Virus record (IMG/VR): IMGVR_UViG_647533160_000006
Span: 1 to 41,987 of that record
Length of the DNA: 41,987 nt
Strand: one strand, 5' to 3'
Source: a virus
Lineage: Duplodnaviria; Heunggongvirae; Uroviricota; Caudoviricetes
The first letter of the stretch is position 1; each line of letters begins with the position of its first letter. The notes below the pieces were generated by a model that worked only from the letters and a program-made list of their open reading frames with translations, had not been told where the DNA came from and did not search any database. Of the stretch, positions 1,009 to 34,259 are shown in pieces. The position numbers were made by a program, and so were the translations under genes.

Positions 1009-1083
1009 GTCCTCTTAGTTAAATGGATATAACGAGCCCCTCCTAAGGGCTAATTGCAGGTTCGATTCCTGCAGGGGACACCA
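1009..1083 (+). tRNA. argW: tRNA-Arg (anticodon CCU)
   Basis: 75-nt sequence GTCCTCTTAGTT...GCAGGTTCGATTCCTGCAGGGGACACCA; acceptor stem pairs, anticodon loop CTCCTAA, T-loop GGTTCGATTCC, encoded CCA end. Confidence 0.9.
1069..1083 (+). other. attL core (prophage left junction inside argW 3' end)
   Basis: 15-bp CTGCAGGGGACACCA at the 3' end of argW is repeated exactly at 40284-40298; integrase gene follows ~160 bp downstream. Confidence 0.6.
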
Positions 1084-1244
1084 TTTATCAGTTCGCTCCC
1101 ATCCGTACCAGTCCGCAAAATCCCCTGAATATCAAGCCTTCCGTATATTCAAAGTTCGTCATGGTTCGCGTCAGATCGTTGACAGCCGCACTCCATGACG
1201 GGTAAAAAGTGGATAAAATAATTTTACCCACCGGATTTTTACCC

Positions 1245-2402
1245 ATGCTCACCGTTAAGCAGATTGAAGCAGCAAAGCCGAAAGAAAAACCATACCGCCT
1301 TCTCGATGGTAATGGCCTGTACCTTTATGTCCCTGTATCCGGGAAAAAGGTATGGCAGCTTCGCTACAAGATTGACGGTAAGGAGAAAATCCTGACCGTA
1401 GGAAAATATCCGCTAATGACTTTGCAGGAGGCAAGGGATAAAGCATGGACTGCGAGGAAAGACATCTCGGTTGGCATCGATCCGGTAAAAGCGAAAAAGG
1501 CTTCGTCTAATAACAATTCCTTTAGCGCCATTTACAAGGAATGGTACGAGCACAAGAAGCAAGTCTGGTCAGTAGGGTATGCGACTGAACTTGCCAAAAT
1601 GTTTGATGACGACATTTTACCTATCATCGGCGGCCTTGAAATTCAGGATATTGAGCCGATGCAACTGCTGGAAGTAATCCGCAGATTTGAAGATCGCGGT
1701 GCAATGGAGCGAGCCAACAAAGCACGCAGAAGATGCGGCGAGGTTTTCCGTTACGCTATTGTCACCGGCAGGGCTAAATATAACCCGGCACCTGACCTTG
1801 CTGACGCCATGAAGGGATACCGCAAGAAGAACTTCCCGTTTCTTCCTGCAGACCAGATCCCGGCATTCAACAAAGCACTGGCAACATTTTCAGGAAGTAT
1901 CGTATCGCTCATTGCGACTAAAGTTTTGCGCTACACAGCCCTAAGAACGAAAGAGCTTCGCTCCATGCTATGGAAGAACGTTGATTTTGAAAACAGGATT
2001 ATCACCATCGACGCCAGTGTGATGAAGGGACGCAAAATTCATGTGGTCCCGATGTCAGACCAGGTGGTTGAACTTCTCACTACACTAAGCTCAATCACTA
2101 AACCAGTATCAGAGTTTGTTTTTGCCGGGCGCAACGATAAGAAAAAGCCAATCTGCGAGAACGCTGTGCTACTTGTGATCAAACAAATCGGCTATGAGGG
2201 TCTGGAAAGCGGCCACGGATTCAGGCATGAATTCAGCACGATTATGAACGAGCACGAATGGCCTGCTGACGCTATTGAAGTGCAACTGGCACATGCCAAC
2301 GGCGGATCTGTGCGCGGTATTTACAACCATGCTCAGTATTTCGATAAGCGCAGAGAAATGATGCAGTGGTGGGCGGACTGGATTGATGAAAAGGTGGAGT
2401 GA
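1245..2402 (+). CDS. intS: Tyrosine recombinase / phage integrase (IntS-like)
   Basis: ORF next to argW; translation from MLTVKQIEAAKPKEKPYRLLDGNGLYLYV gives 385 aa, the length I recall for E. coli IntS; the track ORF starts at an upstream GTG (1209) without a convincing RBS. Confidence 0.85.
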   Translation: MLTVKQIEAAKPKEKPYRLLDGNGLYLYVPVSGKKVWQLRYKIDGKEKILTVGKYPLMTLQEARDKAWTARKDISVGIDPVKAKKASSNNNSFSAIYKEWYEHKKQVWSVGYATELAKMFDDDILPIIGGLEIQDIEPMQLLEVIRRFEDRGAMERANKARRRCGEVFRYAIVTGRAKYNPAPDLADAMKGYRKKNFPFLPADQIPAFNKALATFSGSIVSLIATKVLRYTALRTKELRSMLWKNVDFENRIITIDASVMKGRKIHVVPMSDQVVELLTTLSSITKPVSEFVFAGRNDKKKPICENAVLLVIKQIGYEGLESGHGFRHEFSTIMNEHEWPADAIEVQLAHANGGSVRGIYNHAQYFDKRREMMQWWADWIDEKVE

Positions 2403-4919: not shown

Positions 4920-5798
4920 TCAGTAGTTATGTACTGAAGGAGGTAATTCTTTATTCTTAAGTCTCATCCATGCGGAAAGATTCGTTGGTCCTTCTGGCTC
5001 ATTGATATCAACATCTCGTGTGTGATTGATTAAAACGTCCCTCGCCATTCCGATAACATACGAGAACTCATGACCGTAGTCGTAGCATCTGCCGGAATAG
5101 TTCGATTGAATTTGTTTTAATGCCGGATACAGTTCGCGGAATAATGCCTGTGAGCGGTTGGCATAATCCCATAACCATACAAGGCTGTTTGCTTCTTTTG
5201 CAGAAAGCTCGTTGGTTTTCTTCTCTTGTTTGCCGATAAACTCGCCTTCAAGCACTACCCTGTGGATGTACTCTACGGCCAGCGGGATTTGTTCAATTGA
5301 AAGTTCATCAATGCTGTCAATACCAAAACGCTGATGAACCATATTGTATGCATCGTCATAGCGAAGTCCTTTCTTTCCTACCAGCATGTTTACTGCATCG
5401 CGTAGCGGCGTTCTTTCCTCAACAGTGGTTTTCTTGCCTTTCACATACTCGCCATGTTTGCGAATTGAAGGTAGAACTTCTGCTGTTACCCACTTGCGGA
5501 ATTTGTGCGGGACCGAACCTTTATTGACAGCATCGCGGCAGCGCAGAACCAATGTATACATACCTGATTCGCTAACAATGCTTAGATTCTGCTCACCACC
5601 AAGGGTGTAACTTAAAGTTACTCCCTTTTCATCGTCATCAAGTGCAGTAAGCGCCTTGCGTGAGTTAGTCAGGGTTAAAGCATCACAAACATCTTTTGCT
5701 ACAAACCACGGATCACCGCATTTGTTGATGACGCGGATTTCACTGTCGCCGAATTTGAAGATGGTGAAATCGTTTTGTGCCTTTGCTATACTTTTCAT
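4920..5798 (-). CDS. ant: Phage antirepressor Ant (BRO-N / KilA-type)
   Basis: Motif [29 protein letters not shown] typical of Bro-N antirepressors; lies downstream of arc as in P22 immI; start chosen at internal Met (MKSIAKAQ) leaving a 68-nt arc-ant spacer; ORF is open up to 5864. Confidence 0.75.
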
Positions 5799-5866
5799 GT
5801 CAATATTTCCTAATCCGATTTGTTGATACCGAAGCCCTGACTGTTCCCGCAGTTGGGGCTTCAACT

Positions 5867-22039: not shown

Positions 22040-22507
22040 TCATCGAAGGCATTGCGTCCTGATGTATTCCTGAAGCGTTCTCAGTGCTGTTTGGTCGCGG
22101 ATAATTCCGTCCCGGATACCGAGAACGTTTCGTCCAGCAACTGGAGAGAGTTCGACGGTGGCATCATTGCCCATGCCGGAGGCGCTGGAGGTTTCGGCTG
22201 AGGATGGCACAGGGCATTTTCCTTTGACGAGCACCCTGCCACCATTATCAAGCTTGCGCCGAAGAGCATCATTTTCAGCTTTCGCATCAGCTAACTCCTT
22301 CGTGTATTTAGCATCGAGTGCATCAGCATCGCGCTGGCGCTGCTGCATGTCAGTAATGGTGGCAGTCGCCTGCTTCAGCTCTCTGACTTTTTTATCGCGC
22401 TGCTCCTTGTAGGCGATGGCGTTATCACGGTAATGATTAACAACCCACGACAGGCAGACGATGATGCAGATAACCAGAGCGGAGATAATCGCGGTGACTC
22501 TGCTCAT
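22040..22507 (-). CDS. Rz: Spanin, inner membrane subunit Rz
   Basis: [21 protein letters not shown]... matches recalled lambda Rz; start overlaps the endolysin stop (ATGA). Confidence 0.9.
22081..22287 (-). CDS. Rz1: Spanin, outer membrane lipoprotein subunit Rz1 (embedded in Rz)
   Basis: Embedded +1-frame [24 protein letters not shown] with lipobox and Pro-rich segment PPAPPAW. Confidence 0.75.
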
Positions 22508-22980
22508 ACCTCAATCTCTCTGACCGTTCCGCCTGCTTCTTTGAATTTTGCAATCAGGTTGTCAGCCTTATGCTCGAACTGACCATAACCAGCGCCCGGC
22601 AGTGAAGCCCAGATATTGCTGCAACGGTCGATTGCCTGACGGATGTCACCGCGATCAATCATCGGTAAAGCGCCACGCTCTTTAATCTGTTGCAATGCCA
22701 CAGCATCCTGGCTTTTCGGAGAGAAGTCTTTCAGGCCAAGCTGCTTACGATAGGCATCCCACCAACGGGAAAGAAGCTGGTAGCGTCCGGCGGCTGTTGA
22801 TTTGAGTTTGGGGTTTAGCGTGACAAGTTTACGAGGGTGATCGGAGTAATCAGTGAATAGCTCACCACCTACAATGACGTCATAACCATGATTTCTGGTT
22901 TTCTGACGTCCGTTATCAGTTCCCTCTGACCACGCCAGCATATCGAGGAACGCCTTACGTTGATTATTGATTTCCACCAT
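22504..22980 (-). CDS. R: Endolysin R (lambda-type lytic transglycosylase)
   Basis: 158-aa [39 protein letters not shown]... matches recalled lambda R. Confidence 0.9.
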
Positions 22981-23287
22981 CTTCTACTCCGGCTTTTTTA
23001 GCAGCGAAGCGTTTGATAAGCGAACCAATCGAGTCAGTACCGATGTAGCCGATGAACACGCTCGTTATATAAGCGAGATTGCTACTTAGTCCGGCGAAGT
23101 CGAGAAGGTCACGAATGAACCAGGCGATAATGGCACACATCGTTGCGTCGATTACTGTTTTTGTAAACGCACCGCCATTGTATCTGCCGCGAAGGTACGC
23201 CATTGCAAACGCAAGGATTGCCCCGATGCCTTGTTCCTTTGCCGCGAGAATGGCGGCTAACAGGTCATGTTTTTCTGGCATCTTCAT
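22964..23287 (-). CDS. S: Holin S (class I, lambda S107-like)
   Basis: 107-aa [39 protein letters not shown]... with dual-start motif, matches recalled lambda S. Confidence 0.9.
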
Positions 23288-30656: not shown

Positions 30657-30935
30657 TCAGGCCTCGAAGAATTCGCCGTTCTTCGGGGCTTTTTCTTTTG
30701 TCAGCATTCTGGCTACTTGCTTAGCCAGTTCCGCCAACTCCTCGTCTTCAACACCCCATTCAAGAACAGCCAGAAGCATTCCCATTTTTGGGATGAAGCT
30801 ATCTTTCCATCGCGAAATTTGCGATTCATTAATCCCTAACGCGTCGGCAACCTTTCGCTGACCACGTACAGCAATTCGATTCAGGATGTTGCTTGTAATT
30901 GCATTCGCTTTCTTGCGAGTACTTGTAAGTTCCAT
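30657..30935 (-). CDS. cII: CII-like transcriptional activator
   Basis: From [62 protein letters not shown], resembling lambda CII; AAGGAAA RBS; the track ORF is extended upstream. Confidence 0.8.
30661..30700 (+). terminator. Plus-strand intrinsic terminator antisense to cII 3' end (OOP-like)
   Basis: GCCTCGAAGAA-TTCGCCGT-TCTTCGGGGC followed by TTTTTCTTTTG on the strand opposite cII. Confidence 0.6.
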
Positions 30936-30992
30936 ATGTAAGTATTTCCTTAACAAATAAGAAGTTATGCGCATCAACTTATGCGCGTTGTA

Positions 30993-31037
30993 TTCCCGCA
31001 TTTCGGCGGGAATGATGACCATGACTGTTAAAGAGCG
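30993..31037 (-). promoter_or_regulatory. nutR (boxA + boxB)
   Basis: Minus-strand read CGCTCTTTAACAG (boxA) then hairpin TCCCGC-CGAAAT-GCGGGA (boxB) between cro and cII; boxB is identical to the nutL copy. Confidence 0.75.
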
Positions 31038-31043
31038 GTGTTA

Positions 31044-31238
31044 CTATTTGTTTTTCTTGTTGCTTGGGAAAGGACGAACTTCCTCTCCAATCACACTGCC
31101 ATCAGGCTTTACCGTAACCATGATGTTACGGCCTGCCAGAATGGCCTTGCTGATAGCGCACTGGATTACACCAAAGTCACTGGCTGCTTTAGCCTGTCCA
31201 TGGATTTTGGCGTAATCGGCAAGTGTCATTCGAATCAT
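31044..31238 (-). CDS. cro: Cro-like repressor
   Basis: C-terminal part [40 protein letters not shown] parallels lambda Cro; GGAGA RBS; divergent from cI. Confidence 0.8.
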
Positions 31239-31268
31239 ATGCACTCTCCGTTATTAACCATGAACAAA

Positions 31269-31333
31269 GAATACTACAGGTATTCAAAGCAATCAATACT
31301 CAGGGTATTTTTAGTTTAAGTACCTTAGCTATT
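31269..31333. promoter_or_regulatory. OR operator cluster with pR/pRM
   Basis: GAATAC-N5-GTATTC at 31269-31285, AATAC-N5-GTATT at 31294-31310, weaker AGTAC-N5-CTATT at 31318-31333, ~25 bp apart; TAGAAT -10 six nt before the cI ATG. Confidence 0.7.
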
Positions 31334-31344
31334 AGAATTAAGCT

Positions 31345-32061
31345 ATGGAAAATAAAAAATCACTGACGACAGAACAGCTCGAAGACGCTAAGCGGCTTAA
31401 GGCTTTGTATGAGTCAAAAAAGAAAGAATTGGGAATAACCCAATACTCAATCGCTGATGAACTGGGTATCACCCAAGGAGCGGTAGGGCATTATCTTAAT
31501 GGCAGAAACGCGCTAAACGTTGAGGTTGCATCTGGTTTTGCACGATTGTTGCAAGTCTCAATTGCTGATTTTAGCCAGTCAATTGCTGCCAAGGTTGCAG
31601 AACAGGCAGAAAGCCTTAAGAGCGATGCCAACGTAAGGTATGCAGGGGAATACAGAGCAGGAAAGAGGTATCCGGTGTTAAGCAGTATCCAGGCTGGCTC
31701 GTGGTGTGAAGCATGCGAACCATACACCATTAAAGACATAGATGTTTGGCTTGAGTCTGACGCGCATATTCAAGGTAATGCGTTTTGGCTTAAAGTGGAA
31801 GGTGATTCAATGACGGCACCGGTTGGGTTAAGCATTCCAGAGGGAACATTCGTTCTTTTCGATACCGGAAGGGAGGCGATCAACGGCAGCTTGGTCATAG
31901 CAAAACTTTCTGACTCTAACGAAGCAACATTCAAGAAGCTGATAATCGACGGAGGAAATAAATACCTCAAGGGACTTAACCCTGCATGGCCTCTCGTGCC
32001 AATCAATGGAAACTGCAAGATTATAGGCGTTGCAATTGAGACAAAACTAAGGCTGGTTTGA
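31345..32061 (+). CDS. cI: CI-like prophage repressor (HTH + LexA-type S24 peptidase domain)
   Basis: 238 aa; N-terminus LTTEQLEDAKRLKALYESKKKELGITQYSIADELG parallels lambda CI; C-terminal ...VEGDSMTAP...FKKLI... autocleavage-domain pattern. Confidence 0.85.
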   Translation: MENKKSLTTEQLEDAKRLKALYESKKKELGITQYSIADELGITQGAVGHYLNGRNALNVEVASGFARLLQVSIADFSQSIAAKVAEQAESLKSDANVRYAGEYRAGKRYPVLSSIQAGSWCEACEPYTIKDIDVWLESDAHIQGNAFWLKVEGDSMTAPVGLSIPEGTFVLFDTGREAINGSLVIAKLSDSNEATFKKLIIDGGNKYLKGLNPAWPLVPINGNCKIIGVAIETKLRLV

Positions 32062-32078
32062 TCACGCAAGGGGCGCTT

Positions 32079-32447
32079 ATGGTTGGAACCGCTATAGCAA
32101 GCTTTTTTGGGATGTTGGCAATCTCGACAATTTACGGCTTAGCGCATGCTTTTATTGCGAAATCTCTATCAGAAAAAATAAGCCAGGCTTGGGCGCATAG
32201 GTCAGCTCGTTTCATGATTCTGGTGATCATAGCAATACAAGGGATATCTGCATTTATCCTCTATGGATCAAGCTTATACCTATTGTATCAAGGCGCGACA
32301 TTTACGCCTTACACCAGTGATTACGGAACTCTATACGATGGTAGTGAAGACATCTCTATGGCTTGGATTGTCTTTGGTTTATCTATGGCCGTGTCTGTTG
32401 TAGCAGATATCATTAAGGTAATTCTCGTCTTAACCTTCGCTGACTAA
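32079..32447 (+). CDS. Small multi-TM membrane protein co-transcribed with cI (rex slot)
   Basis: ATG 6 nt after AAGGGG; ~122 aa with four hydrophobic segments; overlaps/abuts cI stop; no similarity to RexA/RexB that I can see. Confidence 0.6.
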   Translation: MVGTAIASFFGMLAISTIYGLAHAFIAKSLSEKISQAWAHRSARFMILVIIAIQGISAFILYGSSLYLLYQGATFTPYTSDYGTLYDGSEDISMAWIVFGLSMAVSVVADIIKVILVLTFAD

Positions 32448-32535
32448 CCTATAATCCCGGCAGCAATAGCTATCGGGATCCACTTCACATATCCCGCATA
32501 AAAAGCACTGAACAAGCAGACACCGAAAAAAATAA

Positions 32536-32621
32536 ATATCCTTTGTATTCATTTGCTTATCATTATTTCATCAAAAATAAATACCTTGGGTATTTACACA
32601 ATAAAATACCTACAGTATTCT
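32536..32621. promoter_or_regulatory. OL operator cluster with pL
   Basis: Same half-site family as OR: AATAT-N5-GTATT (32536-32550), AAATAC-N5-GTATTT (32579-32595), AATAC-N5-GTATT (32604-32620); candidate -35 TTTACA / -10 TATTCT. Confidence 0.65.
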
Positions 32622-32666
32622 TTAGCCATCAGCAGGACGCTGGTAGCCAAACGGAACATATTGGCA

Positions 32667-32708
32667 GGCTCTTTAACATTGATGGGATTGTCCCGCCGAA
32701 ATGCGGGA
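32667..32708 (+). promoter_or_regulatory. nutL (boxA + boxB)
   Basis: GGCTCTTTAACA (boxA) then TCCCGC-CGAAAT-GCGGGA (boxB); RNA sequence identical to the nutR boxB. Confidence 0.75.
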
Positions 32709-33019
32709 ACCAAAGAGTAGTTGGCTTTGGGGTGACGTGAAGTGCAGCTGCACGACGGCAACCGGAAGATAAGCACCCGGCGCGTCACCGCCAAAGTCAA
32801 TTCCATAGGCGAAATGCAGCCGCCAAACACAGCCAATGCTGCACATGCAACAGGAGGATTTATGTGAATGCATAACTTCAAAACCGAGGTTAATTAAATC
32901 TCTCGATCCGAGCATTGACCTATTAGGTGGCGAGATGCTCTTTCTGCCCCTCAGTTCGAGGGGCCAGAAACCACTTTGCAATCACTATCAATTCCAAAGT
33001 TGTTTCATCGGAGGTCAAC

Positions 33020-33325
33020 ATGACAGTAGTCATTACATATCTGGCTGACGATAACGCCAGAAATCGCCGCAGAGCACGCAGACAGGCTCAACGTGAACAG
33101 GCAATGCAAGAGCAGCTACTGGCGCGAAAAATTGCGCTAAAGCTCTCTGGTTGCGTCAGGGCAGATAAAGCAGCATCACTCGGAAGCCTTCGCTGCAAGA
33201 AGGTAGTAGAAGTCGAGCGTAAACAGAACCGTATTTACTACCGCAAGCCACGCAGTGAAATAGGTGTGACTTGTGTTGGTCGCCAGAAGCAACGCGGAAA
33301 ATCAATTCCAGCTTATTGCGATTGA
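33020..33325 (+). CDS. N: N-like antiterminator
   Basis: From ATG 5 nt after GGAGG; N-terminal Arg-rich motif DDNARNRRRARRQAQREQ; ~101 aa; the track ORF is extended upstream. Confidence 0.75.
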   Translation: MTVVITYLADDNARNRRRARRQAQREQAMQEQLLARKIALKLSGCVRADKAASLGSLRCKKVVEVERKQNRIYYRKPRSEIGVTCVGRQKQRGKSIPAYCD

Positions 33326-33506: not shown

Positions 33507-33593
33507 ATGGAAGAAGAATTTGAAGAGTTCGAAGAGCATCCGCAGGATGTGATGGAACAATACCAGGACTATCCGTATGACTACGACTATTGA
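33507..33593 (+). CDS. Acidic aromatic micro-protein (28 aa)
   Basis: GAGGTG RBS 5 nt before ATG; MEEEFEEFEEHPQDVMEQYQDYPYDYDY; stop overlaps the ral start; the RBS-start sequence is duplicated at 33828-33845. Confidence 0.35.
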   Translation: MEEEFEEFEEHPQDVMEQYQDYPYDYDY

Positions 33594-33777
33594 TAAAAAT
33601 CAATGGTGTGGACAATTCAAGCGATGCAATGGATGCAAGCTGCAATCGGAATGCATGGTTAAGCCTGAAGAAATGTTTCCTGTAATGGAAGATGGGAAAT
33701 ATGTCGATAAATGGGCAATACGAACGACGGCAATGATTGCCAGAGAACTTGGTAAACAGAATAACAAGGCTGCCTGA
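33577..33777 (+). CDS. ral: Restriction alleviation protein Ral
   Basis: 66-aa MTTTIDKNQWCGQFKRCNGCKLQSECMVKPEEMFPVMEDGKYVDKW... matches my recollection of lambda Ral. Confidence 0.7.
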   Translation: MTTTIDKNQWCGQFKRCNGCKLQSECMVKPEEMFPVMEDGKYVDKWAIRTTAMIARELGKQNNKAA

Positions 33778-33836: not shown

Positions 33837-34259
33837 ATGGAAGAACAAGCAAACAAGATTCTCGTAGAACTACTGCAAAAAGCCAGTAATGGAATAGACG
33901 CGGCTGTTTCATTTAGCCAGGCACAGATTCCTGATGTTGTTCATCAGTTGCTAATATGGAGTTTTGTCCATAGCGCACTTTTCCAAGTGGCTGGATTGTT
34001 GCTTTTAATTGCAGCAATTAAACTTCCTAGTTTTGCAAGAACGGCAAGAAATAATGGCGAGAGATGGACGTCTTTCGATGGACGTCCAAATGATGGACAT
34101 TTTATATCTTCGGTTTATTACGATATATGCACTGTATTTGTTCCTATATTTGGCTCAATTATGGGTGTTTTAATTATTGCCTTCAATTTCGAATGGTTGA
34201 AGATTTGGCTTGCACCTAAGTTATTCCTAATTGAATATGCGGCATCATTGGTTAAGTAA
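33837..34259 (+). CDS. Membrane protein, candidate superinfection-exclusion factor
   Basis: 140 aa with two strongly hydrophobic helices (ALFQVAGLLLLIAAIKL, VFVPIFGSIMGVLIIAF); flanked by terminators on both sides. Confidence 0.6.
   Translation: MEEQANKILVELLQKASNGIDAAVSFSQAQIPDVVHQLLIWSFVHSALFQVAGLLLLIAAIKLPSFARTARNNGERWTSFDGRPNDGHFISSVYYDICTVFVPIFGSIMGVLIIAFNFEWLKIWLAPKLFLIEYAASLVK

What the first reader, a model, noticed from the sequence alone, without database searches (positions are those of the whole stretch)
32058..32480. Single multi-TM membrane protein in the rex position, co-transcribed with the cI repressor
Directly after the CI-like repressor, with start overlapping or abutting its stop, is a ~122-aa protein with four hydrophobic helices, followed by a hairpin and then the OL/pL region. 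In lambda this slot holds rexAB. A lone small membrane protein expressed from the repressor operon is a classic layout for an abortive-infection or exclusion factor, and I do not recognise this sequence as RexB or any named protein.
Basis: partly seen in the sequence, partly recalled or inferred. Interest (0 to 1): 0.7.

Follow-up and report, generated by a model that had tools for sequence, protein, structure and literature searches.

The report
Orphan membrane protein HkaS beside repressor
Right after the prophage repressor gene sits a real, conserved gene for a small three-helix inner-membrane protein (HK620 "HkaS", annotated since 2001 with no known function); it occupies the slot where other lambda-like phages keep anti-phage genes, so it is a reasonable but untested candidate for a new exclusion factor.

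Summary
A 122-codon gene (ATG 32079 to stop 32447, + strand) lies 17 nt after the cI stop, behind its own Shine-Dalgarno. A hairpin follows, then the OL operators, pL, nutL and N. It has three transmembrane helices, not four. It also has a name: it is hkaS of phage HK620, annotated "unknown", and belongs to phrog_6534, "unknown function".

The gene is under purifying selection (dN/dS 0.12-0.22) and is intact in all 80 IMG/VR relatives kept. It sits directly after this cI lineage in every locus read. Complete E. coli genomes give identical counts for the two genes (146 of 5426).

The family is a narrow enterobacterial orphan: 12 clusters among 5.8 billion, and 2 representatives among 1.84 billion. 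I found no sequence or fold relationship to RexB, 434 Hex, holins, PADLOC models, Pfam, NCBIfam or PDB. No RexA partner is present.

The predicted topology is N-terminus out, C-terminus in. The cytoplasmic loop and the C-terminal KxILVLTFAD are the most conserved parts.

My best reading is a lysogen-expressed accessory protein of the immunity operon that excludes other phages at the inner membrane. The function is inferred, not shown. Interest is moderate: a known unknown in a known hotspot, and easy to test.

The parts
31270..31309 (.). OR operators (AATACTACAGGTATT at 31270-84, AATACTCAGGGTATT at 31295-309) between cro and cI; region of pRM and pR
   Evidence: Pattern search. The HK620 record annotates OR1-3 and pR at the equivalent place.
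31345..32061 (+). cI repressor, 238 aa (HTH_3 + Peptidase_S24), HK620 immunity type
   Evidence: It is 99.6-100% identical to the cI of HK620, HK140, HK630 and mEpX2.
32068..32073 (+). Shine-Dalgarno AAGGGG of hkaS, 5 nt before the ATG, inside the 17-nt cI-hkaS spacer
   Evidence: Sequence. The AAGGA/AAGGG box and spacing are conserved in all nine divergent loci.
32079..32447 (+). hkaS: 122-aa protein with three TM helices, predicted for the inner membrane (N-out/C-in); family phrog_6534
32454..32479 (+). 3' hairpin of the cI-hkaS transcript (stem AUCCCGG/UCGGGAU with an inner 3-bp stem); no U-tract
   Evidence: Hairpins of different sequence occupy the same place in four diverged lineages (z -2.8 to -4.6).
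32535..32549 (.). Operator-like palindrome AATATCCTTTGTATT (1 mismatch to the operator consensus); the HK620 record calls this stretch tIMM
   Evidence: Invariant block in the alignment.
32580..32621 (+). OL2 (32580-94), OL1 (32605-19) and pL (-35 TTTACA at 32593, -10 TATTCT ending at 32621)
32668..32708 (+). nutL (boxA-like GCTCTTTAA, boxB hairpin CCCGC-CGAAAT-GCGGG)
   Evidence: Sequence. HK620 and HK140 annotations.
33020..33325 (+). N-like antiterminator, first gene of the pL operon
   Evidence: phrog_271, E 2e-34. Pfam N_peptide hit is weak.

Best explanation
The gene is hkaS, the second and last cistron of the cI immunity operon of an HK620-immunity lambdoid prophage.

Inferred expression: in the lysogen it is transcribed with cI from pRM, and from pRE during establishment. 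It is translated from its own Shine-Dalgarno.

Inferred location: it inserts into the inner membrane as a compact bundle of three long helices. The N-terminus and an acidic beta-hairpin loop face the periplasm. A basic loop (KISQAWAHRxARF) and the invariant C-terminal KxILVLTFAD lie on the cytoplasmic side. An invariant Asp110/Lys113 pair and Gln54 lie within the hydrophobic helices.

Inferred function: it is an accessory (lysogenic-conversion) protein, not part of the repressor switch. The most likely role is to protect the lysogen from heteroimmune or unrelated phages. Almost the whole protein is membrane-embedded, there is no partner gene, and there is no soluble sensing domain. I therefore favour action inside the membrane at the genome-entry step. 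In that model it would interfere with the phage's ejection or tape-measure proteins, or with a host inner-membrane protein they use. P22 SieA, HK97 gp15 and T4 Imm work this way. I rank a triggered cell-killing mechanism second.

Shown here: gene reality, operon position, linkage to cI, predicted topology and fold, orphan status.
Inferred only: expression in the lysogen, membrane location, and any exclusion activity.
For: Real, selected gene:
- dN/dS is 0.12-0.22.
- It is 122 codons in every lineage.
- 0 of 80 alleles are disrupted.

Operon membership:
- The spacer after cI is 17-21 nt with a conserved SD in 9 divergent loci.
- No promoter-like or + strand terminator-like site lies between cI and the hairpin.
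- A structurally conserved hairpin ends the unit before OL.

Fixed part of the immunity module:
- All 80 IMG/VR loci share one homology block from about 30600 (cII) to about 32700-32800 (past nutL), and none breaks between cI and hkaS.
- The only 16 phage records in which tblastn finds hkaS are all among the 16 records whose cI is at least 99% identical.
- 146 genomes and 147 places in complete E. coli genomes for each gene.

Accessory rather than core:
- The nearest other cI lineages (62-71% identity) carry unrelated cargo or none in the slot.
- P22-type and other lambdoid switches work without such a gene (established knowledge).
- hkaS evolves 5-6 times faster than the cI C-terminal domain at equal dS.
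- Its ratio of amino-acid-polymorphic to synonymous-polymorphic codons is 16:16, against 5:29 for cI.

Membrane protein:
- Three hydrophobic blocks.
- AlphaFold2 pLDDT 92.3 with three 28-33-residue helices.
- The positive-inside pattern holds in all members: 3-5 K/R in loop 28-44, and 0-1 K/R with 2-4 D/E in loop 71-92.

Precedent for the slot: rexAB, bstA and hex are all co-transcribed with the repressor and all exclude phages (PMC8585504, PMC7067206, PMC3564112).
Against: - There is no experimental or transcriptomic evidence for expression or for any phenotype.
- The best-conserved surfaces are cytoplasmic (loop identity 0.71; C-terminal decapeptide 9 of 10 invariant). The periplasmic loop is less conserved (0.52). 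This fits a cytoplasmic partner at least as well as a periplasm-facing entry block.
- Strict co-inheritance with one cI lineage down to saturated synonymous sites could instead reflect a functional tie to the repressor, as with 434 Hex.
- The substitutions seen are mostly conservative hydrophobic swaps, as expected from relaxed constraint rather than an arms race.
Confidence: 0.35

Rival explanations
1. Sensor-less abortive-infection effector. HkaS oligomerises in the inner membrane as a latent ion or proton leak. The buried Asp110/Lys113 and Gln54 would line or gate it. An infection cue opens it, collapsing membrane potential and aborting the infection. This is what RexB does, but here without a RexA-type activator.
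For: - It occupies the same slot as rexAB and bstA, both abortive-infection systems (PMC8585504).
- Invariant charged and polar residues sit inside the hydrophobic helices.
- The conserved cytoplasmic loop and C-terminus could receive a cytoplasmic signal.
- Lone membrane-associated abortive proteins exist, such as SieB and PifA (established knowledge).
Against: - There is no homology to RexB and no RexA or SieB in the window.
- The loops are only 17 and 22 residues, which leaves little surface for specific sensing.
- The module recombines with many different replication and virion modules. A trigger that responds to general lytic growth would therefore hit the prophage's own induction, and no self-immunity element is evident.
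- No oligomer model could be computed.
Confidence: 0.2
2. Modulator of the lysis-lysogeny switch rather than a defence gene. HkaS would stabilise the lysogen or tune establishment or induction from the membrane. It could do so by affecting RecA-dependent cI cleavage, as 434 Hex does, or by acting on membrane or cytoplasmic proteases (FtsH/HflKC on cII and cIII; ClpXP, as reported for RexB).
For: - Linkage to one cI lineage and its operators is strict, with co-divergence to saturated dS.
- The HK620-type cI is about 52% identical to 434 cI. The partner of 434 cI in this same slot, Hex, reduces spontaneous induction (PMC3564112).
- The conserved face is cytoplasmic.
- The gene would also be expressed from pRE during establishment (inference).
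Against: - HkaS is unrelated to Hex (hhalign probability 0.08%).
- Related repressors at 62-71% identity function with different cargo or none.
- Tight linkage is also expected from a 17-nt spacing alone.
- hkaS evolves much faster than cI.
Confidence: 0.15
3. Lysogenic-conversion factor aimed at host physiology rather than at phages. Examples would be envelope-stress, acid, bile or antimicrobial-peptide tolerance, or interference with a host transporter.
For: - It would be constitutively expressed in the lysogen (inferred).
- It is carried by 2.7% of complete E. coli genomes from many hosts.
- A phage whose repressor is about 52% identical carries a PagP gene next to the repressor (phage Huey).
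Against: - There is no similarity to any transporter or resistance family. The only Pfam hit, Cation_ATPase_C, scores 19 bits against a gathering cutoff of 27.3.
- The family is confined to lambdoid immunity regions.
Confidence: 0.1
4. Non-functional or spurious ORF that merely hitch-hikes with cI.
For: - No function is known.
- It is an orphan family.
- Constraint is relatively relaxed.
Against: - dN/dS is 0.12-0.22.
- The length is exactly conserved across lineages with saturated dS.
- The SD and ATG are conserved.
- 0 of 80 alleles are disrupted.
- The fold prediction is confident.
Confidence: 0.03

Closest known systems
HK620 hkaS / PHROG phrog_6534 (also HK140_049, HK630 'HkaS protein', mEpX2, HF4s and Stx2c phage homologues)
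   Same: It is the same gene. Protein identity is 97.5-99% (one record, HF4s, 92.5%), with a full-length profile match (E 2.9e-79). The position between cI and OL is identical.
   Different: Nothing differs. All of these records are annotated 'unknown' or 'hypothetical'.
Lambda RexB (with RexA), the abortive-infection system in the same slot
   Same: It is a small polytopic inner-membrane protein encoded after cI, before OL, in the repressor operon.
   Different: There is no sequence relationship (hhalign probability 0.7%). HkaS has 3 TM helices against 4, and 122 aa against 144. There is no RexA partner in the operon or anywhere in the window.
Phage 434 Hex (heterologous exclusion and repressor protection)
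   Same: It is a single extra cistron directly after a related (about 52% identical) cI, on the pRM transcript. It is of similar size, 134 aa (PMC3564112).
   Different: It is unrelated in sequence. In Hex I saw only a signal-peptide-like hydrophobic N-terminus, on reading its translation, and not a three-helix membrane protein.
BstA of Salmonella prophage BTP1
   Same: It is encoded downstream of cI and co-transcribed with it, and it is a lysogen-expressed defence gene (PMC8585504, PMC7067206).
   Different: BstA acts at sites of phage DNA replication and has a DNA-based self-immunity element, aba, so it is not described as a small membrane protein. HkaS gave no PADLOC hit.
Single-protein inner-membrane superinfection-exclusion factors (P22 SieA, HK97 gp15, T4 Imm)
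   Same: These are small inner-membrane proteins that are sufficient on their own. This is the functional model I favour.
   Different: There is no detectable homology: only phrog_6534 matched among 38,880 PHROGs. Those genes lie elsewhere in their genomes, not in the repressor operon. Activity of HkaS is untested.
Class I holins (lambda S type)
   Same: They also have three TM helices with N-out/C-in topology and about 105-120 aa.
   Different: There is no homology to the window's own holin, phrog_126 (hhalign probability 0.2%). HkaS has no charged cytoplasmic tail and does not lie in the lysis cassette.

Membership tests
HkaS family (phrog_6534) | Full-length profile match | tested here: met
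   E 2.9e-79, residues 1-122 aligned to profile positions 1-122. Protein identity to HK620 hkaS is 97.5%.
HkaS family (phrog_6534) | Position directly after an HK620-type cI and before OL/pL | tested here: met
Lambda RexB | Sequence or profile homology to RexB | tested here: not met
   hhalign probability 0.7%. There was no PHROG or Pfam RexB hit. tblastn of RexB against the window gave E >= 0.56.
Lambda RexB | Four transmembrane helices | tested here: not met
   Three hydrophobic blocks and three long helices.
Lambda RexB | Adjacent RexA sensor gene | tested here: not met
   The cI-hkaS spacer is 17 nt. No further conserved ORF lies before OL. tblastn of RexA against the window gave a best E of 4.3.
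Lambda RexB | Encoded in the cI operon between cI and OL | tested here: met
Lambda RexB | Membrane depolarisation and exclusion of T4 rII on activation | not testable with these tools
   This needs infection and membrane-potential assays.
434 Hex | Sequence homology | tested here: not met
   hhalign probability 0.08%.
Known anti-phage defence systems (PADLOC-DB v2) | Match to any defence-protein model | tested here: not met
   0 families at E <= 10.
Inner-membrane superinfection-exclusion proteins (SieA, gp15, Imm type) | Small polytopic inner-membrane protein made in the lysogen | tested here: inconclusive
   Topology and operon position are predicted. Expression and localisation were not measured.
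Inner-membrane superinfection-exclusion proteins (SieA, gp15, Imm type) | Blocks genome entry of superinfecting phage | not testable with these tools
   This needs plating-efficiency, adsorption and DNA-entry assays.
Class I holin | Homology to holin families, a charged C-terminal tail, and location in the lysis cassette | tested here: not met
   hhalign probability against the window's holin is 0.2%. The C-terminus is ...ILVLTFAD. The lysis genes lie at about 22040-23287.

The most novel reading that the evidence does not exclude
HkaS would be a self-sufficient, single-gene membrane defence of a new family. It would be a minimal RexB-like effector that senses infection and depolarises the cell without any RexA-type partner. 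Alternatively, it would be an entry blocker hard-wired into one immunity module, so that every phage acquiring HK620 immunity also acquires the same exclusion spectrum.
Probability: 0.15. Interest if true: 0.65.

Novelty: new member of a known kind. Interest (0 to 1): 0.4.

Why it matters
The cI-N interval of lambdoid prophages is transcribed at high level in every lysogen. It has already yielded rexAB, hex and bstA.

HkaS is a third kind of cargo there, unrelated to the others. It is present in about 2.7% of complete E. coli genomes, in Stx2c-converting phages, and in the laboratory phages HK620, HK140, HK630 and mEpX2. No function has been assigned in 25 years.

If it excludes phages, it would add a very small one-gene membrane system to the defence catalogue. 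It would also affect host-range results for phages plated on strains that carry this immunity module. If it instead tunes induction, it would bear on the stability of Stx prophages.

Either outcome can be tested with one clone and one deletion in an existing genetic system.

Tried and rejected
Family and homology searches:
- Pfam, NCBIfam and PADLOC scans gave nothing above threshold. The only Pfam hit was Cation_ATPase_C at 19 bits, below its 27.3-bit gathering cutoff, which I attribute to hydrophobic composition.
- An exhaustive profile HMM search of 1.84 billion representatives found only the family itself plus a 44-aa fragment.
- The PDB sequence search gave 0 hits at E <= 10.

Fold searches:
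- BFVD had no match better than E = 0.29.
- PDB Foldseek had no match better than E = 0.68; its weak hits to ExbB and DgkA are not significant.
- The afdb50 library was unavailable.

Direct comparisons:
- Profile comparisons with lambda RexB, 434 Hex and the window's holin were all negative.
- tblastn of lambda RexA, RexB and SieB against the window was negative.

Collection scan:
- The GTDB species-representative genome scan found no relative. This probably reflects that collection holding one genome per species and the sporadic occurrence of prophages.

Other features in the region:
- Rfam found no known RNA in 31900-33100.
- The prophage sRNA svsR, reported at the 3' end of a cI gene (PMC12803456), rests on weak similarity in another prophage. 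I did not pursue it.
- I rejected the 40-aa antisense ORF at 32430-32552 as a gene, because that stretch is not conserved in diverged loci.
- I rejected the TTG at 32058 as the start.

Structure-based idea:
- I tested whether the invariant residues cluster on one helical face. They do not, at any significance (permutation p = 0.11-0.58), so I make no claim of a conserved pore-lining face.

Literature:
- Searches for hkaS, its accessions and its PHROG number found no functional study.
- The HK620 genome paper (J Mol Biol 2001) is not in the held library.

Full report
**1. What is there**

The window is a P22-like prophage.
- It has a tRNA at 1009-1080 and an integrase at 1209-2402.
- It carries a tailspike, an Ant antirepressor with its sar antisense RNA, and a lysis cassette at about 22040-23287.

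Its immC region reads, on the + strand:
- cI at 31345-32061 (HTH_3 + Peptidase_S24);
- the ORF in question;
- an intergenic region;
- an N-like antiterminator at 33020-33325 (phrog_271).

Cro (31044-31244) and a cII-like gene (30657-31022) lie on the other strand.

Operators of the form AATAC-N5-GTATT occur at 31270, 31295, 32580 and 32605, with a one-mismatch copy at 32535. That is 6 matches in the window, at up to one mismatch, against 1.1 expected. A pL-like promoter (TTTACA-17-TATTCT) spans 32593-32621.

So the ORF does sit between cI and OL/pL, where lambda has rexAB (lambda layout).

**2. The ORF itself**

The mechanical ORF starts at TTG 32058, which overlaps the cI stop (TGA 32059-61), and ends at 32447.

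The real start is almost certainly the ATG at 32079, which gives 122 aa.
- AAGGGG lies 5 nt upstream of it.
- All diverged relatives keep an ATG with an AAGGA/AAGGG box 17-21 nt after the cI stop.
- In the Salmonella lineage an in-frame TAA directly precedes the ATG.

The gene is real.
- Five lineages at 52-83% protein identity all have exactly 122 codons.
- dN/dS is 0.12-0.22 wherever dS is not saturated.
- Among 80 near-identical IMG/VR loci there are 33 nucleotide alleles and 19 protein variants, and none carries a premature stop.

A hairpin follows the stop at 32454-32479 (-13.7 kcal/mol, z -3.05). Hairpins of quite different sequence occupy the same place in three other lineages (z -2.8 to -4.6). 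That argues for a conserved 3'-end structure of the immunity transcript. None is followed by a U-run, and the terminator scan does not call them.

**3. Identity**

The region from 31300 to about 33200 is 98.4-99% identical to the immunity regions of several phages: HK620, HK140, HK630, mEpX2, HF4s, two EHEC phages and two Stx2c phages.
- In HK620 the gene is hkaS, product 'unknown'.
- In HK140 it is a hypothetical protein.
- It matches PHROG phrog_6534 ('unknown function') end to end, E 2.9e-79.

It has a name but no function. Literature searches found no functional study.

**4. How isolated the family is**

| Search | Result |
|---|---|
| Word-seeded search of 5.8 billion proteins | 12 clusters; the few with a source name are E. 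coli, Hafnia and Salmonella |
| Exhaustive profile HMM search of 1.84 billion 50%-identity representatives | the family representative plus a 44-aa fragment |
| Pfam, NCBIfam, PADLOC | nothing significant |
| PDB sequences | nothing significant |
| hhalign vs lambda RexB | probability 0.7% |
| hhalign vs 434 Hex | probability 0.08% |
| hhalign vs the window's holin | probability 0.2% |

The window contains no RexA, RexB or lambda-type SieB.

**5. Structure and topology**

Hydropathy shows three hydrophobic blocks.

AlphaFold2 on the 7-sequence alignment gives pLDDT 92.3 and pTM 0.79. The model contains:
- helices 2-29, 41-73 and 89-121;
- a short helix 31-38;
- a beta-hairpin in the 71-92 loop (strands at 78-79 and 85-86).

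That makes three TM helices, not four.

In every family member the 28-44 loop carries 3-5 Lys/Arg. The 71-92 loop carries 0-1 Lys/Arg and 2-4 Asp/Glu. By the positive-inside rule this gives an N-out/C-in topology.

Conservation is highest in two places, both cytoplasmic:
- the cytoplasmic loop (mean pairwise identity 0.71);
- the last ten residues, KxILVLTFAD (9 of 10 invariant).

It is lower in the periplasmic loop (0.52).

S16, Y19, Q54, D110 and K113 are invariant polar or charged residues inside the hydrophobic helices. The invariant positions do not cluster significantly on one helical face (p 0.11-0.58).

Fold searches gave only generic helical bundles.

**6. Linkage to cI**

In nine diverged loci from E. 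coli, Salmonella, Hafnia-like and unassigned sources, the homologue always follows a 210-254-aa HTH+S24 repressor. N, or an N36-type gene, follows after the operator region.

In all 80 IMG/VR loci the homology block around hkaS runs from about 30600 (cII) to about 32700-32800 (past nutL). It never breaks between cI and hkaS.

The only 16 phage records in which tblastn finds hkaS are all among the 16 records with a cI at least 99% identical.

Complete E. coli genomes give identical counts for the two genes. Each is in 146 of 5426 genomes and at 147 places, all chromosomal.

Synonymous sites are equally saturated in cI and hkaS between lineages. dN of hkaS, however, is 5-6 times that of the cI C-terminal domain (0.094 against 0.016 at dS about 0.8). 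Within E. coli, hkaS is also the more polymorphic gene. The operators are nearly invariant across these lineages.

The next-nearest cI proteins are at 62-71% identity: Serratia OS31, Erwinia 49, Cronobacter ENT39118 and E. coli Fostie. They carry unrelated cargo with no hydrophobic stretch, or nothing, in the slot.

So hkaS is old cargo of one immunity lineage, not a general part of CI-type switches. The module is found with different virion types, including Lederbergvirus HK620 and Hendrixvirinae HK140.

**7. Interpretation**

Shown:
- a real, selected gene;
- a predicted 3-TM membrane protein;
- a position in the repressor operon with no room for its own promoter;
- an orphan family.

Inferred: expression from pRM in the lysogen, and any function.

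Published work treats the cI-N interval as a hotspot for lysogen-expressed accessory and defence genes.
- rexAB and bstA are described this way, and cI-bstA is one transcript in BTP1 (PMC8585504, PMC7067206).
- 434 Hex, in the same slot, both excludes P22 and protects the repressor from RecA-stimulated cleavage (PMC3564112).

On that basis, an exclusion role at the inner membrane is the best single guess. I put it at about 0.35 as an entry block and about 0.2 as a sensor-less abortive effector.

I favour the entry block for three reasons:
- the protein is almost entirely membrane-embedded;
- it has no partner gene;
- an entry block needs no self-immunity in a module that recombines freely with other phage modules.

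The cytoplasm-facing conservation and the strict tie to one cI keep two other readings alive. One is a trigger-receiving abortive effector. The other is a Hex-like regulator of the switch (about 0.15).

**8. Verdict**

- The gene is a known unknown (hkaS) in a known hotspot. If it is a defence gene, it would be a new family of a known kind.
- Interest is moderate.

Noticed in passing
window 33837-34259 (+): A 140-aa ORF with two hydrophobic segments lies just after ral (33577-33777) in the pL operon. It belongs to phrog_3054, 'unknown function'. The window has no lambda-type SieB, RexA or RexB, so this is a second uncharacterised membrane protein in the early-left region.
   Followed up: partly
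window about 32720-32930: About 205 bp lie between nutL and N that HK620 lacks but HK140 has; HK140 annotates a 41-aa ORF there. The stretch contains a minus-strand terminator-like hairpin at 32795..32776. Most IMG/VR relatives lose homology to the window at 32700-32800, so this is a mosaic junction.
   Followed up: partly
window 32535-32549: The palindrome AATATCCTTTGTATT is one mismatch from the operator consensus and is invariant across diverged lineages. It lies where the HK620 record annotates the terminator tIMM. It may be an extra operator rather than a terminator.
   Followed up: partly
window 32430-32552 (-): A 40-aa Cys-rich ORF lies antisense to the hkaS 3' end and the hairpin. The underlying sequence is not conserved in the Salmonella or L007 lineages, so it is probably not a gene.
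   Followed up: yes
window 5800-5866 (+) and 4920-5864 (-): A sar antisense RNA (Rfam RF00262, 71.6 bits) overlaps the start of an Ant antirepressor gene. The prophage therefore also has a P22-type immI region.
   Followed up: no
window 1009-1080 (+), 1209-2402 (+): A tRNA gene lies directly beside the integrase. This is probably the prophage attachment site, so the first 1 kb or so of the window would be host DNA.
   Followed up: no
L014 2530-3132 (Erwinia phage 49); L016 2664-2957 (phage Fostie); L097 2109-2513 (phage 434 hex): Related cI lineages carry quite different cargo directly after the repressor: a 200-aa protein, a 97-aa protein (neither with a hydrophobic stretch), and Hex. This illustrates how variable the slot is.
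   Followed up: partly
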